Shown here: positions 1 through 10,181 of the stretch, piece after piece
Layout: every line of letters starts with the position of its first letter
Numbering within the stretch: the first letter of the stretch is position 1
NCBI RefSeq assembly: GCF_018420025.1
Contig: NZ_JAEDAM010000062.1
Coordinates: forward strand, 1 to 10,288
DNA from: Candidatus Vampirococcus lugosii
GTDB taxonomy: Bacteria; Patescibacteriota; Gracilibacteria; Absconditabacterales; Absconditicoccaceae
Direction of reading: 5' to 3'
Length of the DNA stretch: 10,288 nucleotides
Notes under the pieces: model-generated
The model's database searches: none
What the model was told of the DNA's origin: nothing
Seen by the model: the letters and a program-made list of their open reading frames with translations, nothing else
Made by a program: the position numbers and the translations under genes

Positions 1-148
1 GTAGTCAGCAATATAACTATTTCCCGTCTTTTTTCAAGTCCTTTTTTGACTTTTTTCTACTTACAATCAATATCTAATTTAATCTCGATTCAAGTAGTCA
101 GCAATATAACTATTTCCCGTCTTTTTTCAAGTCCTTTTTTGACTTTTT
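1..148. repeat. Two identical 55-bp direct repeats (1-55 and 94-148) separated by a unique 38-bp segment (56-93); period 93 bp
   Basis: Both copies read gtagtcagcaatataactatttcccgtcttttttcaagtccttttttgacttttt with 55/55 identity. Each copy ends in a short hairpin (AAGTC, 7-nt loop, GACTT) followed by a T-run on the + strand. The first copy starts at the window edge, so the array may continue leftward. Confidence 0.9.
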
Positions 149-391: not shown

Positions 392-1048
392 TTAAACTAA
401 TTGATTAGCATCTATCTCTTTAAAATTTCCTACATCATCAAAAATTTTAAATTTATTTGATTGAGGAGAAAAAGAATCAAATACATCAAATTCTCAATAT
501 TTCAAAACTTTTGCTGTATTTCATTCTACTGAAAAAGCTATACTCAAATTATTTTTTAAAACCATAATAATTAAATTAGTTCTATCAATACAATAATCCA
601 ATATATCTCAATCTACTTTATTATTTCAAACTAATAATGAAGAAACTCTCCTATCAAATGCAAAAGTATTTTCAAAAAGCAATAAATCCCCTGCTCTATT
701 TATTATAAAATTTCTAATTAAATTTCAATGATTTTGTCTTCCTACACTTATTCAAAAATGAATTCATTCCAAAGTAGAATTTATTTTATTACAATCCAAA
801 AATTTTGTTTCTTGTATAACTCATTTCTTATCAAGAAGATGTATTTTATAATCATAATTAGTACTAATGTTTACTTTTGAAACTAATATTAAAAAATGTC
901 TTTTGGTAAGACAATATAATTGATTTTTGTTGGAAGAAAATAGTCAACATATTCCTTGATATGAAATGGAAGATATTAATTTTCTAGTTTCACCAAAAGA
1001 CATATTTTTAATTAAATTACTCGATAGATAATCATTATTTTCAGTCAT
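392..1048 (-). CDS. Hypothetical protein, 218 aa (code 25, 12 in-frame TGA read as Gly); last gene of the hisS operon
   Basis: ATG at 1048-1046 and TAA at 394-392, with no TAA/TAG in between. The start lies 12 nt after the hisS stop. The protein begins MTENNDYLSSNLIKNMSFGETRKL and I recognise no domain. Confidence 0.7.
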
Positions 1049-1060
1049 TTATTGATAATA

Positions 1061-2389
1061 TTAATTAATTAAAATTTTCTGTTCATTTCATGTTTTCATA
1101 TTTTTAATAATATAATAATTATTACTTTTTTCATTTTGTCAAAATATAACAACATTTTTACTTAATCTTTTATTTGCAAAATCTAATTGTTTTTTAAACT
1201 TATCTTCAAAAGGATAAATTTCTACACTTTTTCATTTTTTTAAAAATGATAACATTATAGACAATATTTCTTTGTTGGTCTCATCAAAATTTAAAAAAAA
1301 ATAATCAGGTCAAGTTTGAAAATCTTTTTGAGAAAAAGTAATTTTTTTATCCAAAAAAATAGAATAAAGCCTATCAATACCAATACTTCCACCAACTCAA
1401 GAACAATTTATTTTGGAAGATAATGAATTTGTAAGTTTATCATACCTTCATCATGAACAAATACTTCAAAACTCTGGAAACTCATCTATAAATATTTCAA
1501 AAACAGTTCCTGTATAATAATCCAAACCTCTTATTATAGAAAAATCAATTTTATATTTTATATTAATACCTAAACTTGAAGAAATTGATAATAAAATTTC
1601 TAATAAAGAAATTAAATCGTTTACTCATTTTTTATAATTATCATCATCAATTAAATTTAAGATATCTGGAAGATCTTCAAAAAAAATTTCTTTTGATAAT
1701 ATTGAAACAAGAAAATCAATATCCTCATCAGATACAGAATTTTTTGATAATTCTTCAATAAAATTAGATTTAGATAATTTATGAAATTTATCAACGATTC
1801 ATACAAGTTTTTTTTCTATAATTTCACTTGAAGATATTTTTTTTAAAATACTTTCTATTATTAATTTATTATTAATATTTACTGTAAAATCTATTTTTTT
1901 ATCACAAACACCAACAATATCAAATATTGTCATATACAAAATGGCAATAATTTCTGCATCATAATAGAATAGATTATCAAACTTTTTTTGATTTCGTATA
2001 ACATCAATATCAGCTTGAGTAAATTCTTTAAACCTTCATTTTTGCTGTCTTTCTCATCTTCGCACTTTTCATATTTGATATTTTTTGAAAGGGAAAAGTA
2101 AATTTGAAAAATTATCTACAACAAATCTAGCAAAAGGAATTGTTTGATCAAAACGAAGAGAATATTTTTTTATATCATCTACTCACTGAGCCAATCAATA
2201 AAGTCCAAAAATTTGTTTACTTATATCTTCTCATCATTTTGAAAGTAAAACTTCATTTTTTTCTACTACTGGAGTTTCAATATGATTATAATTAAATTTT
2301 TTAAAATTAAGTTCAATTAAATCCAAAAAAGCATCATAAACAACTTGATTTTCAATACTATATTCATTAAATCATCATACTTTAAACAT
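1061..2389 (-). CDS. hisS: Histidine--tRNA ligase (HisRS), 442 aa, code 25
   Basis: Line-by-line translation is continuous once TGA is read as Gly. Class II HisRS motifs are present: GKVRRGERQQKGRFKEFTQADID (motif 2), IIRGLDYYTGTVFE, SICSGGRYDKL (the GG is TGA TGA) and GVGGSIGIDR (motif 3), followed by a C-terminal anticodon-binding-like domain. It ends in TAA at 1063-1061. Confidence 0.93.
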
Positions 2390-2991: not shown

Positions 2992-3522
2992 TTAAAAAAT
3001 ATTTATGATATTAATTAAAAAAGTAATGTATACTTGATTAGAAATTATATGATATATTAATGCGGAAAATTTGGTTTTGTCTATTGTAATATGAACATAA
3101 AGTTCTCTACTAAAATCATCAATTCATACAAATAAATATTCTTTAATTTTTTCTTTATCGTCTTTTATGTAAGGTAGTTTTTTTGTATCCATATGAAACA
3201 TTTCTCATGGATATGTTTTATTGTATCTTCTTGCTTGTGCATTTTTCTTCTTTAATGTTTTCTTTTCAATTTTTGATAATCTTTTAAATCAGTATGCTAA
3301 TCATCTAAATCTTGTGTTTGTTGAATTACGTATCTGAAATTCTTTTACTCTAGCTCTCTTTATCACTTTATACACTGTTGGTCTGCTTATATTATATTTA
3401 TTTGCCAAATCCACAACAGACCATTGATCACAATATAGTTTTCGAATATGTTTACGATTCTTTTCTGTTAGTCTCTGATTTTTATGTTCTTTTTTTTGAG
3501 TACATGTTATATGTATATTCAT
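2992..3522 (-). mobile_element. Truncated IS481-family-like transposase (HTH plus the N-terminal part of the rve/DDE integrase core), 176 aa; likely an IS remnant
   Basis: The track ORF 3301-3522 carries an HTH (SVVDLANKYNISRPTVYKVIKRA). Under table 25 it continues through 4 TGA as ...RFRGLAYGFKRL...ARRYNKTYPGEMFHMDTKKLPYI...EYLFVGIDDFSRELYV..DKT. This matches the IS481 pattern RYE..PGEL.H.D.K.L and YL.VAIDD.SR. The frame ends soon after the first catalytic D, so the TDNG.EF second-D and E regions are absent. No terminal inverted repeats were found. Confidence 0.6.
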
Positions 3523-3875
3523 ATTTTGTTTTTTACATAAATATAAATTTTATCTATTATATCTTTTTGTATAAATAACGCTAGTCTATATTACATATAA
3601 TGTATGATATGATGAAAATAAATTTAAAAATTTTTTAAAAAATAATATATATTATGAGAATTTTCAATTATAACTAAACAATTAAAACTAAAAAAATCTC
3701 TTAAATCTTGATTAGTTTGATATGTTTAGTATTATAATAATATTGATGATTTAGAAATTAGGAATGCACTTTATTTAACTTTAAATTCTATGAAGTTTTT
3801 GGGTATATGAAGTTGTGTAAAACTTGGTTTATGAAATGTATCAGTTTTTATTAATTAAATTTTGTATATAAAAAA

Positions 3876-3908
3876 ATAGAGTAGTTAAATATAACTCTAT
3901 TTTTTTTA
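3876..3908. terminator. Bidirectional rho-independent terminator downstream of the R-M operon
   Basis: 7-bp stem ATAGAGT (3876-3882) / ACTCTAT (3894-3900) with an 11-nt loop. It is flanked by an A-run upstream and T8 (3901-3908) downstream, so a T-tract follows the hairpin on both strands. It lies about 65 nt after the R gene stop. Confidence 0.6.
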
Positions 3909-3971
3909 CTATATATAGTAAATTAACTTGAAATAAAAGTTTTTATTATTAATAAATAATTGATTACATAA

Positions 3972-4892
3972 TTATTTTGTTAAAAACTCTAAAACTCCTT
4001 TCTCAAGCATTGCTAAATTAAAAATATAATCATTATGATCAAAATTTTCTCTTAAAGGTTTTTGTGTTTTTTGCCAACCAAAACCGTCTGTTATCCAGAA
4101 AAATTTATATTGTCCGTTCAAAACATCAAATAAATTTCTATATTCTCCTGCTGTAGATTTTAGTTTTGAACCACCTCCACCATAAAAATTTGTCTCAATA
4201 ATAAAAAGTTCTTTTCCGTTATCTATAACAAAATCATATCTTCTTGAAGATTTATCAACTGGTACATCATAACCTAATTCTTTTTTGATTTTTTCAGAAT
4301 TAGCTTCTTTTAGATACTTGTAATTACATTTTTCGCAAACATCTTTGATAAAAACTTCTACAATATTTTCCATTGCATGTCCACCACGATTTTTTCTTGC
4401 ATTACTGTCTAAGCCAGCTTCAACTCCTATCATATAATCAACTAAATTTTTCAACCTTTTATTTACAATCAAAGATTTTAATCCTGTTTCTTTTACAAAA
4501 TGTAAATATTTTTCAATATCTTCATCCTTAATTTCTTTTTTAGAAAAATCAAAATTTTCATAAACAAGTTTTTTATTTTGATAATCAACTAAAATTTTGA
4601 AATTCTTTTTATTGCTTCCGTCTCTAACAACCAAAGCAGGAAGTACTTTTGCAATACTTGGATTTTCTTTTATCAAAAATCTAAATTCATCATCAAAATT
4701 TTCTTTTCCGATCAAATAGTTTAGAGCATTTAAAGCAAGTTCAATCTGTTTTGTGTTTTTTAAAACTTTTTCCCAATTAACAAAATATGACCAAATAGTA
4801 TTGCTTGGTTTTAAATTAGAAATCAAAAAATCAAAAACTTGTTCTTCTGACTCTAAATTTAATACTGATTTATAAAATGTAATGTTTTTCAT
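3972..4892 (-). CDS. dpnB: Type II restriction endonuclease, DpnII/MboI family (predicted GATC specificity), 306 aa
   Basis: Intact ORF in the standard-code track. Segments match R.DpnII as I recall it: NLVDYMIGVEAGLDSNARKNRGGHAMENIV, RYDFVIDNGKELFIIETNFYGGGGSKLKSTA and FWITDGFGWQK..L.E.FD. The ATG lies 3 nt after the methyltransferase stop. It contains no TGA codon, and all 18 Gly are GGN. Confidence 0.9.
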   Translation of the reverse strand: MKNITFYKSVLNLESEEQVFDFLISNLKPSNTIWSYFVNWEKVLKNTKQIELALNALNYLIGKENFDDEFRFLIKENPSIAKVLPALVVRDGSNKKNFKILVDYQNKKLVYENFDFSKKEIKDEDIEKYLHFVKETGLKSLIVNKRLKNLVDYMIGVEAGLDSNARKNRGGHAMENIVEVFIKDVCEKCNYKYLKEANSEKIKKELGYDVPVDKSSRRYDFVIDNGKELFIIETNFYGGGGSKLKSTAGEYRNLFDVLNGQYKFFWITDGFGWQKTQKPLRENFDHNDYIFNLAMLEKGVLEFLTK

Positions 4893-4895
4893 AGT

Positions 4896-5756
4896 TTATT
4901 TTTTAGAATTAAATTTATTTTTTAAGTTTTTGTCCAATTCTTCAAATCTTTTAATAGACAAATCAAGATATTCTTTTTCAAGATCTATCCCAATAAACTT
5001 TCTACCAAACAAATAAGAGGCAAGACCTGTTGTAGAACTTCCCGTGAATGGATCTAGAATTGTATCTCCTTTATTTGTACTAGCTAAAACGATTCTTTTT
5101 AATAATTCTATTGATTTTTGAGTAGGATGTTTTCCAAAAGTTTTTTCAATTTTACTTGGAGTTAAAATAGACCACACACTTCTCATTTGTTTTCCTTTCT
5201 CGTGCATAACTTCATATCTATCTTTTTTTCCACAATGATTACATTTAATTTCTTTAGTATAATTATTTTCCCAATTTACCATAGTTTTATAATTGAAAGT
5301 ATGTTTTGCTTTTTTATCTTTTCATGCCCAAATCAAAGTCTCATGACTGGCAGTAAAAAAACGACAACTCAAATTTGGTGAAGCATTTGGCTTTAGCCAT
5401 GCAATATCATTTAAAATATGAAATTTATTTACTTGCAAGGCAAATCCACATTGATAAATAGAATGATATGTCCCTGAAATCCAAATTGTTCCATTTGGTT
5501 TTAAAACTCTTTTACAAGCCTCAATCCATGTAAGATGAAATTCAAAATTTTGTTTTGTCCCATTACACATATCCCAATCTCCTTTTTTTACACTTACCAT
5601 TTTCCCATTTTGACAAGTAAAACTTCCACTTGAAAGAAAATAAGGAGGATCGGCAAAAATCATATCTACAGAATTTTCTGGCATACTATTTAAAATATCC
5701 AAACTATTAGCTTGATAAAGTGTAAATTTTGGTTTTTCGTAATATGGTTTTTGCAT
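4896..5756 (-). CDS. dpnA: Beta-class N6-adenine DNA methyltransferase, DpnA (M.DpnIIB)-like, 286 aa; single CDS containing one in-frame TGA (5322-5324)
   Basis: Track ORFs 5322-5756 and 4896-5282 are in the same frame, joined by TGA plus 13 codons (..SHETLIWA-TGA-KDKKAKHTFNYKT-MVNWENN..). The N-terminal half carries catalytic motif IV DMIFADPPYF. The C-terminal half carries SAM-binding motif I ILDPFTGSSTTG and GKHPTQKS. The order and sequence resemble DpnA. It ends in TAA. Confidence 0.88.
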
Positions 5757-5865
5757 ATTATTTAGTATAAGTTTTAAAATAATATATTTCTATTTTATAA
5801 AATTTTGTAACTTTTCATTTAGTTATAAAAAATATTTATTATAAAAATATATTAAAAGTTTAATT

Positions 5866-7389
5866 TTAATCATCTACTATTATTTTTATTCTAGAAGATA
5901 TAGATGGCAAATTTTCATACCATGGAGGAGTAATTCTAATGATTCATACATCTATTTCATCATATCAAATTATAATATTTTTTGCTTGTGAAGCTGTTTT
6001 ACCTAATATTAAAGACGATATTTCATCTTTTAATGCTGACATATCTCTTTTGAAATCATATCATAGTACTACATCTATACTAGTAGGAATTATATAATAT
6101 CAATCTGATTTATTATTTTCATAAAAAATAATACTATCTTTATTAATATCTATCAAATTATAATTTTTAGATTTTCTAGTTTTCATAAATTTTTTTACTG
6201 CATTTAACATATCATTCCATTTTATGTAAGCTACATTAATTTTGAAATTAACTTTTCAATCAATACTATAAACTTTATCACCAACTTCCTGTTTTATTTG
6301 TTTATCTAATATTTCTACATCAATAAAATCTTGAAAATGTAATAAAATTTCATTTTCTTTATCTATCAAAGAACTTGCAAAAGAATTTATATTACTTTTT
6401 ATATGATCTTCCAAATAAGTATTTATAGTATCCAAATCTGCTTGTGTAACTTCTCATTCTTTTTCAGTTTTTCATCATACAAATTTTTCATTGGGATATG
6501 CATATATATTTTTTGCTATATTAGATTCGGGCAAATTTTTGATATATAATGTATCAGATTGAGATATATTTCATCTTGCTCAAATTACTTCCCCAAATTC
6601 ATCTTTACTATCTGCTACAACTTCTACAACAACATTTCAAGGTCAATCATCATTAGCAGGAGGAATGTTTACCCATGATTTAGTTCTAAAAATTAGTCAA
6701 GAATCAGTTATTAATCTAGTATTTGAAACTAAAGAGTAATCAAATTTAGTATCATTATATATAGTAATAGTTCAACTTGATGGTTCTTGACTATATTTAA
6801 TATTTTCTACATCAATAGAAATTGAATAATCCAATATTTTAGATTTTATATTATATGGAATAATAATTTGAGACATATTTGTAAAAGTATCATAATCTTC
6901 TTGAGGAACATATCTGAAGTTGTAAGTAATATTTTGTGGTTCATAAGATGATTTTATATATATACTAGCAGATGGAGTAACATATAGATAAAAATAATAA
7001 AAAATAACTAAAATAAAAAAAGTTTCCAAAAAAATAATAAAATATCAAAATGTAGATTTTTGTTTAAATATAAATTTTTGAAGTTCTGATGAATATAGAA
7101 AAAAATCTTTAATTTTTTTAAAAAATTTTAAAAATGGATTTAACTCTATTTCTTCATAATTTGCTCATATAGATTTATAATATTGTGATAAAGTTTTTGA
7201 TTTACACAAAAAAACATAATCAATACTTTTTGTATCTAATATATCCAATATTTGTTTTCATAACCATTTATTCTCAAATATAATATTTTTAGGATCAATT
7301 ACTATTTCTACACTTTTATTATTTGGAATTTTTTCCAAAGTTTTAAAAATTTTGTACAAACTATCTTTGGAAGAAAAAATAATTTTCAT
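5866..7389 (-). CDS. Membrane-anchored conserved hypothetical protein, 507 aa; resembles the CPR proteins often auto-annotated as baseplate J/gp47-like (tentative)
   Basis: Frame from ATG 7389-7387 to TAA 5868-5866 verified line by line under table 25, with 21 TGA. It contains track ORF 6772-7029. An N-terminal region of about 95 aa is followed by one strongly hydrophobic helix (YFIIFLETFFILVIFYYFYLYV) and then a large domain with SGTITIYNDT...NTRLITDSGLIFRT...VVVEVVADSKDEFGE...KFVGG and a C-terminal ITPPWYENLPS..IKIIV. The family call rests on memory only. Confidence 0.75.
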
Positions 7390-7448: not shown

Positions 7449-8219
7449 TTATCTTAATCTAAAATAAAGATATACAAAATATAAAGATATAAAAATAGTT
7501 CGATAATTTTTAATATCAAATGTGTATCAAAACATTTCCGTAACTAAAATTTTATCATATAATTGAAAATAAAAAACTAAATTAATCATAATAGATAAAA
7601 ATATAAATCAAAAAATTCATATTCAATATCTTCTAAATATGTAATTCAAGATTAATCATATAATAAAAATACTAATTCAAAGTAAAGATAAAAATAATCA
7701 TACAGGATATACCATATCATAATTATATAAAACACTATCTTGCAAAAAAGTAGATACACCAAATACACTAGATGTTGGTCTTCATATAAAATTATCTCAT
7801 AAAAGCAAAAATATTCAAAAAGGAACTAAAGATAAAGATATACTATAAAAAAATACATCTATCCATTTGAGTTTCTCTATTCTTAGATCTATTTTTTTCA
7901 AAAACATACTCAAAGCAATAATTAATCATAATGTAATTCAAATAAAATTAAATTCATAGCCATATGGAGAAAGAATAATAAATAAATCATTCAAACTTAA
8001 AGGAATTACTAAATTATATTTAAATAAATTATAAAAATATCATCACAAAATATAAGGCAATATTAAAAAGATAGGTAGCCAATTAAAAAATTTCCAAAAA
8101 TTAATATTAAATCTTTTTGAATAAAAATTAATTAAAAAAATTACACTAATAATAAAAATTACTACTCATATTCATGTCATATATATATTATTTCATGCTA
8201 TATTAATATAAGGATACAT
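7449..8219 (-). CDS. Polytopic membrane protein, Lgt-like (prolipoprotein diacylglyceryl transferase family, divergent), 256 aa
   Basis: Frame from ATG 8219-8217 to TAA 7451-7449 is continuous under table 25. The hydrophobic segment pattern and local similarity to Lgt blocks are judged by eye: NIYMTGIGVVIF vs hWYGl..lg, LVPFGIFLLLGDNFIGR vs ..lGqaiGRwGNF.N.E, and YPVGLFLSL vs P.qLYEs. Several canonical catalytic residues do not appear conserved, so the function is tentative. Confidence 0.55.
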
Positions 8220-8246: not shown

Positions 8247-9737
8247 TTATCTTATATATGTTGTTATTTTACTTTCTCTTATTCATACAACTCTTACATT
8301 ACCAGGATAATCTAATTGATCTTCAATTTTTTTTGCTATAGACATTATAAGTTTTTCAAATTCATATTCGCTAACTTTATTAGAATCAACAAAAGTCATT
8401 ATTTCTCTACCTGCTTGCATTATATATACTTTTTCTACTCAATCAAACTCTGTAACTAGATTTTCCAAGTTTTCCATTCTTTCAATAAACATATTTTTAG
8501 TATTGAATCTAGCTCATGGTCTAGCGGCACTAATTGTATCTGATGCTGTAACTATCCAAGAAATAGGATCAACAAGAGGAACATCAAAATGATGTCATTC
8601 AGCAGAATTTATTGTAATTGAGTAAAATCAATATTGTCTAAGTATTTCTCAACCAATTTTTGCATGTGCCATTCATATTCATGCTTTAAGTTTACCTATA
8701 TCGTGCAACAATCATGCTTTTTTTGCTAATTGTCAATCCAAACCAAGTTCATTTGCTATTCATTCTGCTATTCTAGCAACTTCAATACTGTGAATCCATA
8801 AATTTTGTCAATAACTATATCTAAAATAAAATTGTCAAATCATATAAACTATATCTGATTTCATTATAGGCAAATTAAGAATAGTCAATGCTTCTTTACC
8901 TTTTTCAATAATAAAATCATCTATACTACTTAATACATCATTGTAGGTAGATTCGATATATAATGGATTTATTCTACCATCTTTTACTAATCTTTTTAAT
9001 GTTTCTCAAGCTACATATCTTTTTTCTGGATCAAAACAAGAAATATTTACAACCAAAGGTGTGTCATCTATTATTACTTCTGCTCAAGTAATCTTTTCAA
9101 AAAAAGATATATTTCTTCATTCTTTACCAATAATTTTTCATTTAGTTTCATCATTTGGAATATCTATAGTTGATATAGTAAATTCACTTACTTGATTCAT
9201 ACCAACTCTTGGTAAAACTTTTGATATAATACTTGCTGCTTCTTTCATAGCAACTTCTTTTTTCAAAGTTTTTTGTTTATCAATAAAATTAGCAAGATCT
9301 TTTGAATATGTACTTTCTACAAAAGAATAAATTCTGTCTTTAGCTTCATCTTTAGTATATCAAGAAATTTTTTCCAAAAGTTCTAATTGTTTATTTTCTA
9401 TATTGTCTAAACTTTCTTTTTTTTGAATTAATTTTTTTTCTTCTTCATTCAAAGAAGATATTTTTTCTTCAACTTTTTCTTCTTTTTTTGTTATTCTATC
9501 TTCCAAAGTTTCAATTCTTTTAAGTTTTTGTTCATATTCTTTATTTGCCTGTTCTATTATTGAATTAGCTTTTTTGTCCGCTTTATCTATTATAGAAATA
9601 TATTCCAAATCTATTTTTTCCAACCTTTCATCAAGTTTTTTTTCTTTTTTATTTACATAAGTTTCATATATAAACTTTCAAATAAAAACTCACAAAACTA
9701 ATACCAATATTGGTATTATGATGTTTAATATAGTCAT
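8247..9737 (-). CDS. rny: Ribonuclease Y (N-terminal TM helix, coiled coil, KH domain, HD domain), 496 aa, code 25
   Basis: Frame from ATG 9737-9735 to TAA 8249-8247 verified line by line, with 20 in-frame TGA. It starts with a TM helix (MTILNIIIPILVLVLGVFIGKFIY), followed by the coiled coil seen in track ORF 9360-9623. Next come LEKISGYTKDEAK, the KH block [33 protein letters not shown], the HD block YSYGQN...AGLLHDIGK...EGHH, then AARPGAR, MQAGREI and DYPGNVRVVGIRE. It is colinear with B. subtilis RNase Y. Confidence 0.93.
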
Positions 9738-10095
9738 CTTTTTATTTTTTTATCTAATTAAAATTAATTAATATATTATATTTTATTAAAAAATAAATTA
9801 TTTTGTAAATACAATAATTGTATTAATAAAATTGCTATATTTAAATTGATATGTTTTAAAACTTAAAATATATTTAATTAAGTTATTGTAAAAAATTAAT
9901 AAATTTAAATTATTCTTAACTTATGTTCTAAAAAATTTTAATATTTATTTATCATAATTTATATTTTAATATATTTATTAAATCTAGTTTAAAGTTTAGA
10001 TTTAAAAAATATTTCTAGTTTATTATATAATTTATATATTAATTGTATATTGTTTTTACTGATTTTAAAAATAAAATCAACTAAAAAAATAATTA

Positions 10096-10114
10096 TTCCC
10101 GCCCGGGCGAGGAA
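10096..10114. other. Isolated GC-rich palindrome/hairpin: perfect 10-bp palindrome CGCCCGGGCG (10100-10109) flanked by TTCC / (A)GGAA
   Basis: This is the only strongly GC-rich stretch in the window, sitting in an intergenic region that is otherwise almost entirely A/T. It contains a CCCGGG core and lies 72 nt upstream of the + strand ATG at 10182. Confidence 0.5.
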
Positions 10115-10181
10115 AAGATGTTGATTTTGTGAAAGAAAAAAATATAATGAAAGAGATTTAGTAATATTAAAAAATAAAGAG

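What the first reader, a model, noticed from the sequence alone, without database searches (positions are those of the whole stretch)
3972..5756. DpnII-type (GATC) restriction-modification cassette with standard-code codon usage inside a UGA=Gly genome
The M then R operon (DpnA-like methyltransferase, 3-nt gap, R.DpnII-like endonuclease, hairpin terminator) encodes 34 Gly. By my count, 33 are GGN and only one is TGA. Flanking host genes, and even the adjacent IS fragment (4 of 4), use TGA for most Gly. That difference is far too large to be chance if the cassette shared the host codon bias.

The simplest reading is recent horizontal acquisition from a code-11 donor. Such a transfer works because a standard-code gene ending in TAA is read correctly by a code-25 host. 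The cassette sits next to an IS remnant in a roughly 3-kb accessory block between two housekeeping operons.

It also lacks the Dam-like dpnM gene of the canonical three-gene DpnII system, leaving the DpnA-type enzyme as the only protecting methylase.
Basis: partly seen in the sequence, partly recalled or inferred. Interest (0 to 1): 0.8.

Follow-up and report, generated by a model that had tools for sequence, protein, structure and literature searches.

The report
Imported standard-code restriction-modification cassette
A two-gene DNA-cutting and DNA-marking defence cassette in the UGA=glycine bacterium Vampirococcus lugosii still has standard-code codon usage because it arrived by horizontal transfer; this is a clear but unsurprising case of gene flow across a genetic-code boundary.

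Summary
The window is a whole contig of Candidatus Vampirococcus lugosii (code 25). Seven host ORFs use TGA for 92 of 119 Gly codons. The M–R cassette (3972–5756, minus strand) uses it for 1 of 34 (Fisher p = 7e-16).

The cassette is a DpnII-family endonuclease plus a beta-class N6-adenine methyltransferase, 39% and 48.5% identical to R and the second methylase of the Lactococcus pSRQ700 system. Horizontal origin is strongly supported. An ungapped block (3972–5763) is 94.75% identical to a cassette in a code-11, ~47% GC, Uhrbacteria-like CPR genome, where it is also a low-GC island. Proteins about 80% identical occur across many phyla.

- The lone TGA is not a synonymous Gly codon. It replaces a conserved Arg (AGA) and would be a stop in any code-11 host.
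- The missing dpnM is the normal two-gene layout of this clade.
- The cassette abuts a decayed cas6 fragment. An independent assembly places it beside intact, TGA-rich cas6 and csm3.
- A second code-25 lineage carries a TGA-free copy, so the immediate donor's code cannot be fixed.

This is a new member of a known kind, of modest interest.

The parts
4896..5756 (-). M: beta-class N6-adenine DNA methyltransferase, 286 aa. Motif IV DPPY at aa 36-39, motif I DPFTGSSTTG at aa 235-244, stop TAA.
   Evidence: PF01555 E = 3.5e-56. PADLOC MTase_II 6.9e-95. 48.5% identical to the second methylase of pSRQ700. Closest solved structure is CcrM 6PBD. 15 GGN and 1 TGA.
5322..5324 (-). The only in-frame TGA of the cassette (M codon 145). 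Read as Gly in code 25. It replaces a conserved Arg (AGA) and would be a stop codon in a code-11 host.
   Evidence: AGA in L003 and L005. Arg in 25 of 27 locus homologs and 115 of 120 database homologs. One code-11 homolog has Gly here, encoded by GGG. Not covered by any independent assembly.
4893..4895 (-). 3-nt spacer (ACT) between the M stop codon and the R start codon. Identical in the L003 copy.
3972..4892 (-). R: DpnII-family type II restriction endonuclease, 306 aa, stop TAA, no TGA. The family motif IETNFYGGGGSKLK is conserved.
   Evidence: PF04556 E = 1.5e-91, covering 2-277 of 278. PADLOC REase_II 2.3e-90. 39% identical to R of pSRQ700. dN/dS 0.037 against L003. Only two departures from columns that are >=90% conserved.
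3972..5763 (-). Block shared with cassettes in other genomes, that is, the transferred unit. It runs from 7 nt upstream of the M ATG to the R stop codon.
   Evidence: 94.75% identity, ungapped, to L003/L004. 86% to the code-25 L006 group. 84-85% to L043 and L044. Flanks do not align convincingly.
5757..5865 (-). Intergenic region between host gene g7 and M. Any promoter here is unproven. The 5' region conserved among L003, L006, L043 and L044 is not recognisable.
3870..3906 (.). A/U-rich hairpin flanked by A and T runs, between convergent R and the cas6 remnant. Terminator-like in both directions, and part of the host flank rather than the cassette.
   Evidence: dG -13.3 kcal/mol, z = -3.6 on the minus strand; -15.0 kcal/mol, z = -2.8 on the plus strand. 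No homology to other cassette loci.
3595..3858 (+). Decayed 3' fragment (about 88 codons) of cas6 from the type III-A CRISPR-Cas locus. It carries a 1-nt indel at 3652/3653 and TGG->TAG at 3728, relative to the intact gene in L001.
   Evidence: Intact L001 protein = Cas6 (PF10040, 33.5 bits against a cutoff of 25; PADLOC Cas6). Neighbouring Csm3 = TIGR02582, E = 1.2e-54.
2992..3522 (-). Truncated IS481-family transposase (HTH plus the first part of the DDE domain). 4 of 4 Gly codons are TGA.
   Evidence: NF033577 matches model positions 103-174 of 284 only. HTH and weak rve hits. Codon counts.
5866..7389 (-). Host ORF g7, directly upstream of the cassette (no family hit). 17 TGA and 3 GGN, which serves as a reference for native codon usage.

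Best explanation
Window 3972-5763 is a compact, horizontally acquired type II restriction-modification cassette. M is a beta-class N6-adenine methyltransferase of the DpnA/LlaDCHIB type. R, 3 nt downstream, is a DpnII-family endonuclease.

By homology (inferred), M methylates the adenine of GATC and R cuts unmethylated GATC. The pair then acts as a defence and addiction module, and M is the only protecting methylase.

The cassette belongs to a very mobile, low-GC lineage of two-gene cassettes that circulates among CPR and other uncultivated bacteria. It landed in Vampirococcus beside the type III-A CRISPR-Cas locus, forming a defence island.

It contains no TGA sense codons and both genes end in TAA. 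It is therefore read identically under code 11 and code 25 and could be expressed at once. It has not been resident long enough to acquire the host's TGA-Gly, ATA-Ile or GC3 bias.

The one TGA it carries is a new Arg145->Gly replacement that is possible only in a code-25 cell. It makes this copy non-transferable back to standard-code hosts.
For: Shown:
- Codon contrast of 1/34 against 92/119 TGA-Gly, p = 7e-16.
- The window is Ca. Vampirococcus lugosii, a code-25 organism.
- Family assignments and homology to both genes of pSRQ700.
- 94.75% ungapped nucleotide identity confined to the two ORFs, shared with L003/L004.
- The L003 host has no in-frame TGA, uses TGA as a stop, is ~47% GC and holds the cassette as a 26-28% GC island. 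Its CysRS is closest to Ca. Uhrbacteria.
- R proteins at 70-84% identity occur in about 110 loci from many phyla, nearly always at lower GC than their flanks.
- In the NJ tree, window + L003 has 100% support, + L006 has 100%, and the trio nests in code-11 sequences at 85%.
- Purifying selection: dN/dS 0.037 for R and 0.136 for M, dS about 0.22. Motifs are intact and there are few departures from conserved columns.
- Internal calibration: the adjacent csm3 and cas6 have 29 of 36 Gly codons as TGA, and csm3 is reported as HGT-derived in PMC8080830. Older imports therefore do adapt.
- Physical linkage: unitigs from two sequencing runs join R to TGA-rich cas6 and csm3.
Against: - GATC specificity and activity are inferred from 39-48% identity to the pSRQ700 system, not tested.
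- Arg145->Gly hits a highly conserved residue. One homolog does carry Gly there, but loss of M activity is not excluded.
- Codon 145 and the M-g7 junction rest on a single assembly. Both independent unitigs stop at 5163, which hints at heterogeneity.
- 'Recent' cannot be quantified. Window-branch substitutions show no AT bias (8 GC>AT against 7 AT>GC).
- Donor direction is unresolved, because two of the three closest copies are in code-25 hosts.
Confidence: 0.8

Rival explanations
1. The cassette is kept free of TGA by selection, not just by recency. [quoted passage not shown] Copies that pick up TGA-Gly codons lose the ability to spread and disappear from the circulating pool.
For: Two unrelated code-25 hosts carry it, both without TGA-Gly codons (0/34 in L006 against 29% in its host, p = 4e-5). 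The three closest copies are code 25, code 11 and code 25. TGA-free, dual-code-compatible phages are described for these phyla (PMC10746230).
Against: There are only two code-25 data points. Simple recency explains both. The window copy has already acquired a TGA. No mobile vehicle was found. Lineage-level selection of this kind is hard to tell apart from fast turnover.
Confidence: 0.2
2. Assembly or binning artefact. The cassette would belong to a standard-code organism in the sample and was joined to Vampirococcus DNA by a chimeric assembly.
For: The left side of the contig is suspect. The window and L001 diverge at 3595, and all 7 differences cluster in 3602-3728. Both Logan unitigs break inside M at 5163.
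Against: Unitigs from two runs join R seamlessly to cas6 and csm3, which are 16-24% GC and 80% TGA-Gly. Host genes flank both sides in the deposited contig. The in-frame TGA would truncate M before motif I in a code-11 organism carrying an intact R.
Confidence: 0.04
3. The system is a decaying remnant. Arg145->Gly would have crippled M, R would be inactive or silent, and the cassette would no longer restrict DNA.
For: Position 145 is Arg or Lys in 119 of 120 homologs. T283N in R is unique among 119 homologs. The conserved 5' region of the cassette is not recognisable upstream of M.
Against: Both ORFs are full length with intact motifs and low dN/dS. A homolog with Gly145 (GGG) still sits next to an R gene. 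CcrM, by my recollection, has Ser at the equivalent site. Position 283 is Ala in R of pSRQ700.
Confidence: 0.1
4. Vertical inheritance, with a family-specific avoidance of TGA unrelated to transfer.
For: None beyond the shared TGA-free state in two code-25 hosts.
Against: 95% nucleotide identity to a copy in a code-11, 47% GC genome. The insertion contexts differ. The cassette is nested in a code-11 clade. All 9 native and neighbouring genes examined are 64-100% TGA-Gly.
Confidence: 0.02

Closest known systems
LlaDCHI system of Lactococcus lactis plasmid pSRQ700 (NC_002798.1), a DpnII-type GATC system. The name and the specificity are from my own knowledge; the record itself says only 'DNA adenine methylase / site-specific DNA-methyltransferase / type II restriction endonuclease'.
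   Same: M is 48.5% identical to the second methylase and R is 39% identical to the endonuclease. The gene order (second methylase, then R) and tight coupling are the same. Motifs are shared: DPPY, HET(L/I)LWARK and ETN(F/Y)YGGGGSKLK.
   Different: pSRQ700 has a third gene, a Dam-like methylase, upstream. The window has none. Identity is only moderate, so GATC specificity is inferred.
DpnII system of Streptococcus pneumoniae (dpnM-dpnA-dpnB). This comparison is from established knowledge and was not made by sequence here.
   Same: R belongs to the Pfam family named after DpnII (PF04556, E = 1.5e-91). M is the beta-class partner type, like DpnA.
   Different: Two genes instead of three. No competence-linked regulation is known here. 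The single-strand methylation that DpnA is known for is untested.
The two-gene M-R cassette clade in CPR and other uncultivated bacteria (L003-L024, L043, L044, L046 and following).
   Same: Same architecture, 70-98% protein identity, low GC relative to the flanks, and mostly TAA stops.
   Different: The window copy sits in a code-25 genome and carries a TGA sense codon that the code-11 copies cannot have.
Code-11-compatible phages predicted to infect Gracilibacteria and Absconditabacteria (Liu et al. 2023, PMC10746230).
   Same: Mobile DNA found in code-25 hosts that lacks in-frame TGA and is readable in both codes.
   Different: Those are whole phage genomes linked to hosts by CRISPR spacers. 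This is a chromosomal two-gene defence cassette, and no phage carrier was found.
CcrM/HinfI-like beta-class adenine methyltransferases (PDB 6PBD).
   Same: Best match among solved structures (E = 3.5e-52) and best NCBIfam hit (NF050803), over the catalytic domain.
   Different: The score is far below the CcrM equivalog cutoff (226 against 830 bits). M lacks the CcrM C-terminal domain. It is paired with a DpnII-family nuclease, so it is not an orphan cell-cycle methylase.

Membership tests
DpnII-family type II restriction endonuclease (PF04556) | Full-length match to the family profile above the curated cutoff | tested here: met
   307 bits against a cutoff of 23, covering profile positions 2-277 of 278. 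PADLOC REase_II 2.3e-90.
DpnII-family type II restriction endonuclease (PF04556) | Family-invariant residues and motif retained, as expected for an active enzyme | tested here: met
   IETNFYGGGGSKLK is conserved, as in R of pSRQ700. Only L147 and N283 depart from columns that are >=90% conserved among 119 homologs. dN/dS 0.037.
DpnII-family type II restriction endonuclease (PF04556) | Cleaves unmethylated GATC | not testable with these tools
   Inferred from 39% identity to R of pSRQ700. No solved structure is related by sequence.
DpnA/LlaDCHIB-type beta-class N6-adenine methyltransferase | N6_N4_Mtase domain with beta-class order: motif IV (DPPY) N-terminal, motif I (FxGxG) C-terminal | tested here: met
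   PF01555 at 191 bits. DPPY at aa 36-39 and DPFTGSSTTG at aa 235-244, read directly from the sequence.
DpnA/LlaDCHIB-type beta-class N6-adenine methyltransferase | Closest characterised relative is the second methylase of a DpnII-type system, encoded immediately upstream of R | tested here: met
   48.5% identity over 272 aa to the pSRQ700 second methylase, with the same position relative to R.
DpnA/LlaDCHIB-type beta-class N6-adenine methyltransferase | Makes m6A at GATC, including on single-stranded DNA | not testable with these tools
   Needs methylome data or enzymology.
Canonical three-gene DpnII/LlaDCHI architecture | A Dam-like (alpha-class) methylase gene adjacent to the pair | tested here: not met
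   tblastn with the pSRQ700 Dam-like protein finds nothing in the window. Among the loci held at that point (L001-L040) it finds such a gene only beside distant relatives L025, L027, L029 and L036. The window belongs to the two-gene variant.
Code-25 (UGA=Gly) host genome | In-frame TGA at conserved Gly positions of housekeeping proteins | tested here: met
   RNase Y and HisRS motifs. Organism identified as Ca. Vampirococcus lugosii. Recoding is published.
Horizontally transferred island | Near-identical DNA in a phylogenetically distant genome, with homology ending at the island's edges and composition unlike the host | tested here: met
   94.75% identity confined to 3972-5763. The partner host is code 11, ~47% GC and Uhrbacteria-like. 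Codon and GC contrasts.
Dual-code-compatible mobile DNA (in the sense of PMC10746230) | [quoted passage not shown] | tested here: inconclusive
   The stops are TAA and relatives occur in both codes. This copy, however, now has one in-frame TGA, so it is no longer code-11 compatible.

The most novel reading that the evidence does not exclude
This cassette lineage is a code-neutral selfish element that moves in both directions across the code-11/code-25 boundary among CPR bacteria and is kept TGA-free by selection on transferability. The Uhrbacteria-like L003 copy could then be an export from a code-25 cell. The window copy, with its Arg145->TGA change, would be caught at the moment of becoming locked into code 25. 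That would give a natural system for measuring how leaky the UGA=Gly 'firewall' is, and in which direction.
Probability: 0.18. Interest if true: 0.6.

Novelty: new member of a known kind. Interest (0 to 1): 0.35.

Why it matters
UGA=Gly recoding in Absconditabacteria and Gracilibacteria has been proposed as a barrier to gene exchange. The V. lugosii genome paper discusses this in both directions.

This locus shows concretely that the barrier is asymmetric and leaky. A standard-code gene pair with TAA stops is readable on arrival, and it can be recognised afterwards because it lacks TGA-Gly codons.

Comparison with the fully adapted csm3 and cas6 next door shows that TGA-Gly content can serve as a relative clock for imports in code-25 genomes.

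The Arg->TGA substitution illustrates how a resident copy becomes untransferable to standard-code hosts.

None of this overturns current understanding. R-M mobility, HGT into this genome and TGA-free mobile DNA in these phyla are all already described.

Tried and rejected
- TGA = Trp (code 4): rejected for the window and for L006, because TGA falls on invariant Gly positions.
- 'dpnM was lost here': rejected, because the close clade is uniformly two-gene.
- The lone TGA as the start of adaptation from GGA: rejected, because the ancestral codon is AGA.
- Phage or plasmid vehicle: two scans of viral contigs and a blastn of phage records found nothing relevant. Plasmid hits are only distant homologs (<50%) in Firmicutes and others.
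- Target-site duplications or conserved flanks around the cassette: the flanks do not align and are too AT-rich to judge.
- More code-25 carriers: 80 metagenome loci added none.
- Independent confirmation of codon 145, the M-g7 junction and the IS-cas6 junction: failed.
- GATC avoidance in host DNA: observed/expected is 0.50 (10 against 19.9), but GTAC is 0.45, so 8.5 kb is uninformative.
- tRNA, Rfam and consensus terminator or promoter scans: nothing useful.
- Dating the transfer from substitution direction: too few changes.
Full report
**What is in the window.** With TGA treated as a sense codon, the 10,288-bp window resolves into nine minus-strand ORFs:
- g1, 392-1048, no family hit
- histidyl-tRNA synthetase, 1061-2389
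- g3, 2401-2868
- a truncated IS481-family transposase, 2992-3522
- R, 3972-4892
- M, 4896-5756
- g7, 5866-7389
- g8, a membrane protein, 7449-8219
- RNase Y, 8247-9737

TGA falls on conserved glycines of RNase Y (IIGKEgRNI, AgLLHDIGK) and HisRS (ggRYD), so the host uses code 25. The R protein is 100% identical to an NCBI entry from Candidatus Vampirococcus lugosii whose longest contig is 10,288 bp, so the window is that whole contig. The genome paper confirms UGA=Gly in this organism (PMC8080830).

**The observation.** R has 18 GGN and 0 TGA. M has 15 GGN and 1 TGA. The seven host ORFs have 92 TGA and 27 GGN, with per-gene TGA fractions of 0.64-1.00, and the IS fragment has 4 of 4. Fisher's exact p is 6.8e-16. 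Other signals agree: ATA-Ile 47% against 16% (p = 2e-4), GC3 9.3% against 14.5%, and Trp 0.44% against 1.85% of codons. M and R are separated by 3 nt and both end in TAA.

**What the genes are.** R is a full-length DpnII-family endonuclease (PF04556, E = 1.5e-91; PADLOC REase_II). M is a beta-class N6_N4 methyltransferase, with DPPY near the N-terminus and DPFTGSSTTG near the C-terminus. Its best solved relative is the CcrM catalytic domain, but it scores far below the CcrM equivalog cutoff.

On Lactococcus plasmid pSRQ700 the homologs lie side by side. There, a Dam-like 'DNA adenine methylase' is followed by a second methylase (48.5% identical to M) and then the endonuclease (39% identical to R). 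From my own knowledge this is the LlaDCHI system, a DpnII-type GATC system. GATC specificity for the window's enzymes is therefore an inference from homology, not a result.

**Horizontal origin.**
- The block 3972-5763 aligns without gaps at 94.75% identity to L003/L004, a 167-kb contig. The alignment runs from the R stop codon to 7 nt upstream of the M start codon and no further.
- That host has no in-frame TGA in 20 genes, uses TGA as a stop and has housekeeping genes at about 47% GC. The cassette there is 26-28% GC, so it is an island in that genome too.
- The L003 CysRS is closest to Ca. Uhrbacteria proteins, at 62-64% identity.
- Database searches return thousands of homologs. R proteins of 70-84% identity occur in Azambacteria, Saccharibacteria, Buchananbacteria, Falkowbacteria, CPR3, Omnitrophota, Planctomycetales, Desulfurellales, Nitrospirae and others, and the cassette's GC is below that of its flanks almost everywhere.
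- Against L003, dS is about 0.22 and dN/dS is 0.037 (R) and 0.136 (M), so both genes have stayed under purifying selection.

**A second code-25 carrier.** L006-L010 are one population seen in five samples. They carry a copy with R 94% and M 80% identical, 86% at the DNA level. Their flanks give long ORFs only if TGA is sense. TGA sits on invariant glycines of transglycosylase and transpeptidase motifs. About 29% of that host's Gly codons are TGA, yet its cassette has 0 of 34 (p = 4e-5).

A bootstrapped NJ tree of R genes gives (window[25], L003[11]) at 100% support, adds L006[25] at 100%, and nests the trio among code-11 sequences at 85%. The sequence therefore has a standard-code history. The immediate donor, and even the direction of the window/L003 exchange, cannot be determined. 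No further recoded host was found among 80 metagenome loci.

**The single TGA.** M codon 145 (5322-5324) is AGA in L003 and L005. The position is Arg in 115 of 120 close homologs, Lys in four and Gly in one. It is also Arg in the pSRQ700 methylase. So the TGA is an Arg->Gly replacement by an A->T change, not a synonymous switch to host usage.

In a code-11 cell it would truncate M before its AdoMet-binding motif while R stays intact. It must therefore have arisen in a code-25 cell, and it bars this copy from returning to standard-code hosts. The one other homolog with Gly145 encodes it with GGG in a code-11 context and has an R gene downstream, so Gly is probably tolerated.

Caveat: no independent assembly covers this codon. 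The exact M protein is on record only from this contig.

**Architecture.** A probe made from the pSRQ700 Dam-like methylase finds nothing in the window. Among the related loci it hits only next to distant relatives (L025, L027, L029, L036; R <=70% identical). The two-gene layout is thus the norm for this clade and not a deletion in Vampirococcus.

**Context.** Two Logan unitigs from the Vampirococcus sequencing runs (L001, L002) match window 3595/3821-5163. L001 continues past R into an intact cas6 (PF10040; PADLOC Cas6) and a csm3 (TIGR02582, E = 1.2e-54), which together use TGA for 29 of 36 Gly codons. The genome paper lists Csm3 among HGT-derived genes and describes a type III CRISPR-Cas locus acquired by HGT. 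Older imports therefore do adapt fully, and the R-M cassette is the later arrival.

In the window, only the last ~88 codons of cas6 survive (3595-3858, plus strand), abutting the IS fragment. All seven differences from L001 cluster in 3602-3728, including a frameshift and TGG->TAG, while 3729-5163 is identical. That pattern does not fit simple strain divergence and is unexplained. Possible causes are a paralogous fragment, gene conversion or a chimeric join. The 'accessory block between two housekeeping operons' is therefore uncertain on its left side.

The hairpin at 3870-3906 is real (z = -3.6) but lies in host flank between convergent genes.

**Prior knowledge and verdict.**
- The genome paper reports 'one type II' restriction enzyme and 126 HGT genes, including restriction and methylase genes.
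- TGA-free, dual-code-compatible phages of these phyla are published (PMC10746230).
- The mobility of R-M systems is textbook knowledge.

The finding is correct and well documented, with some instructive details: the code-locking substitution, a second code-25 carrier, and the calibration against csm3. It is a new member of a known kind, not a new kind of system.

Noticed in passing
window 3595-3858 (+); L001 1306-2654: The window holds only a decayed 3' fragment of cas6, next to the IS remnant. Unitig L001 from the same sample has intact cas6 and csm3 after R. All 7 differences cluster in 3602-3728, and the next 1.4 kb is identical. That pattern is odd for strain divergence. It may reflect a paralogous fragment, gene conversion or a chimeric join.
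   Followed up: partly
window 5163 (inside M): Logan unitigs from two different runs (L001, L002) both end at exactly this position. This suggests a branch in the assembly graph, meaning sequence heterogeneity or a repeat within M.
   Followed up: no
window 1-55 and 94-148: A perfect 55-nt direct repeat with a 38-nt spacer at the very start of the contig. No Rfam match. Possibly the edge of a repeat array that ended the assembly.
   Followed up: partly
window 10093-10116: A GC-rich near-palindrome (TTATTCCCGCCCGGGCGAGGAAAA) isolated in a 12-14% GC intergenic region upstream of RNase Y.
   Followed up: no
L003 10926-14019: In the code-11 host the low-GC island extends beyond the cassette. It includes 77-aa and 149-aa ORFs with no family hit, a LEM-3-like GIY-YIG nuclease and two more small ORFs. 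None of these is shared with the window.
   Followed up: partly
L006 8491-9060 and 10924-11319: In the second code-25 host the cassette is followed, about 3 nt after R, by an Abi_alpha gene with one in-frame TGA. It is preceded by an IS200/IS605 Y1 transposase with two in-frame TGAs.
   Followed up: partly
L042 8001-9396: An M protein from the same 90% cluster is paired with a PDDEXK_11-type nuclease instead of a DpnII-family R, which suggests the nuclease partner has been swapped.
   Followed up: no
window 392-2389 (g1, HisRS): Host genes are almost free of Trp. g1 (218 aa) and HisRS (442 aa) have no TGG. Overall the host has 0.44% Trp against 1.85% in the cassette.
   Followed up: no
L022 526-529; L023, L025, L027 8001-8004: Several relatives end M with TGA overlapping the R start codon (ATGA). 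In a code-25 host such copies would read through the M stop. This is a possible filter on which variants can cross the code boundary.
   Followed up: no
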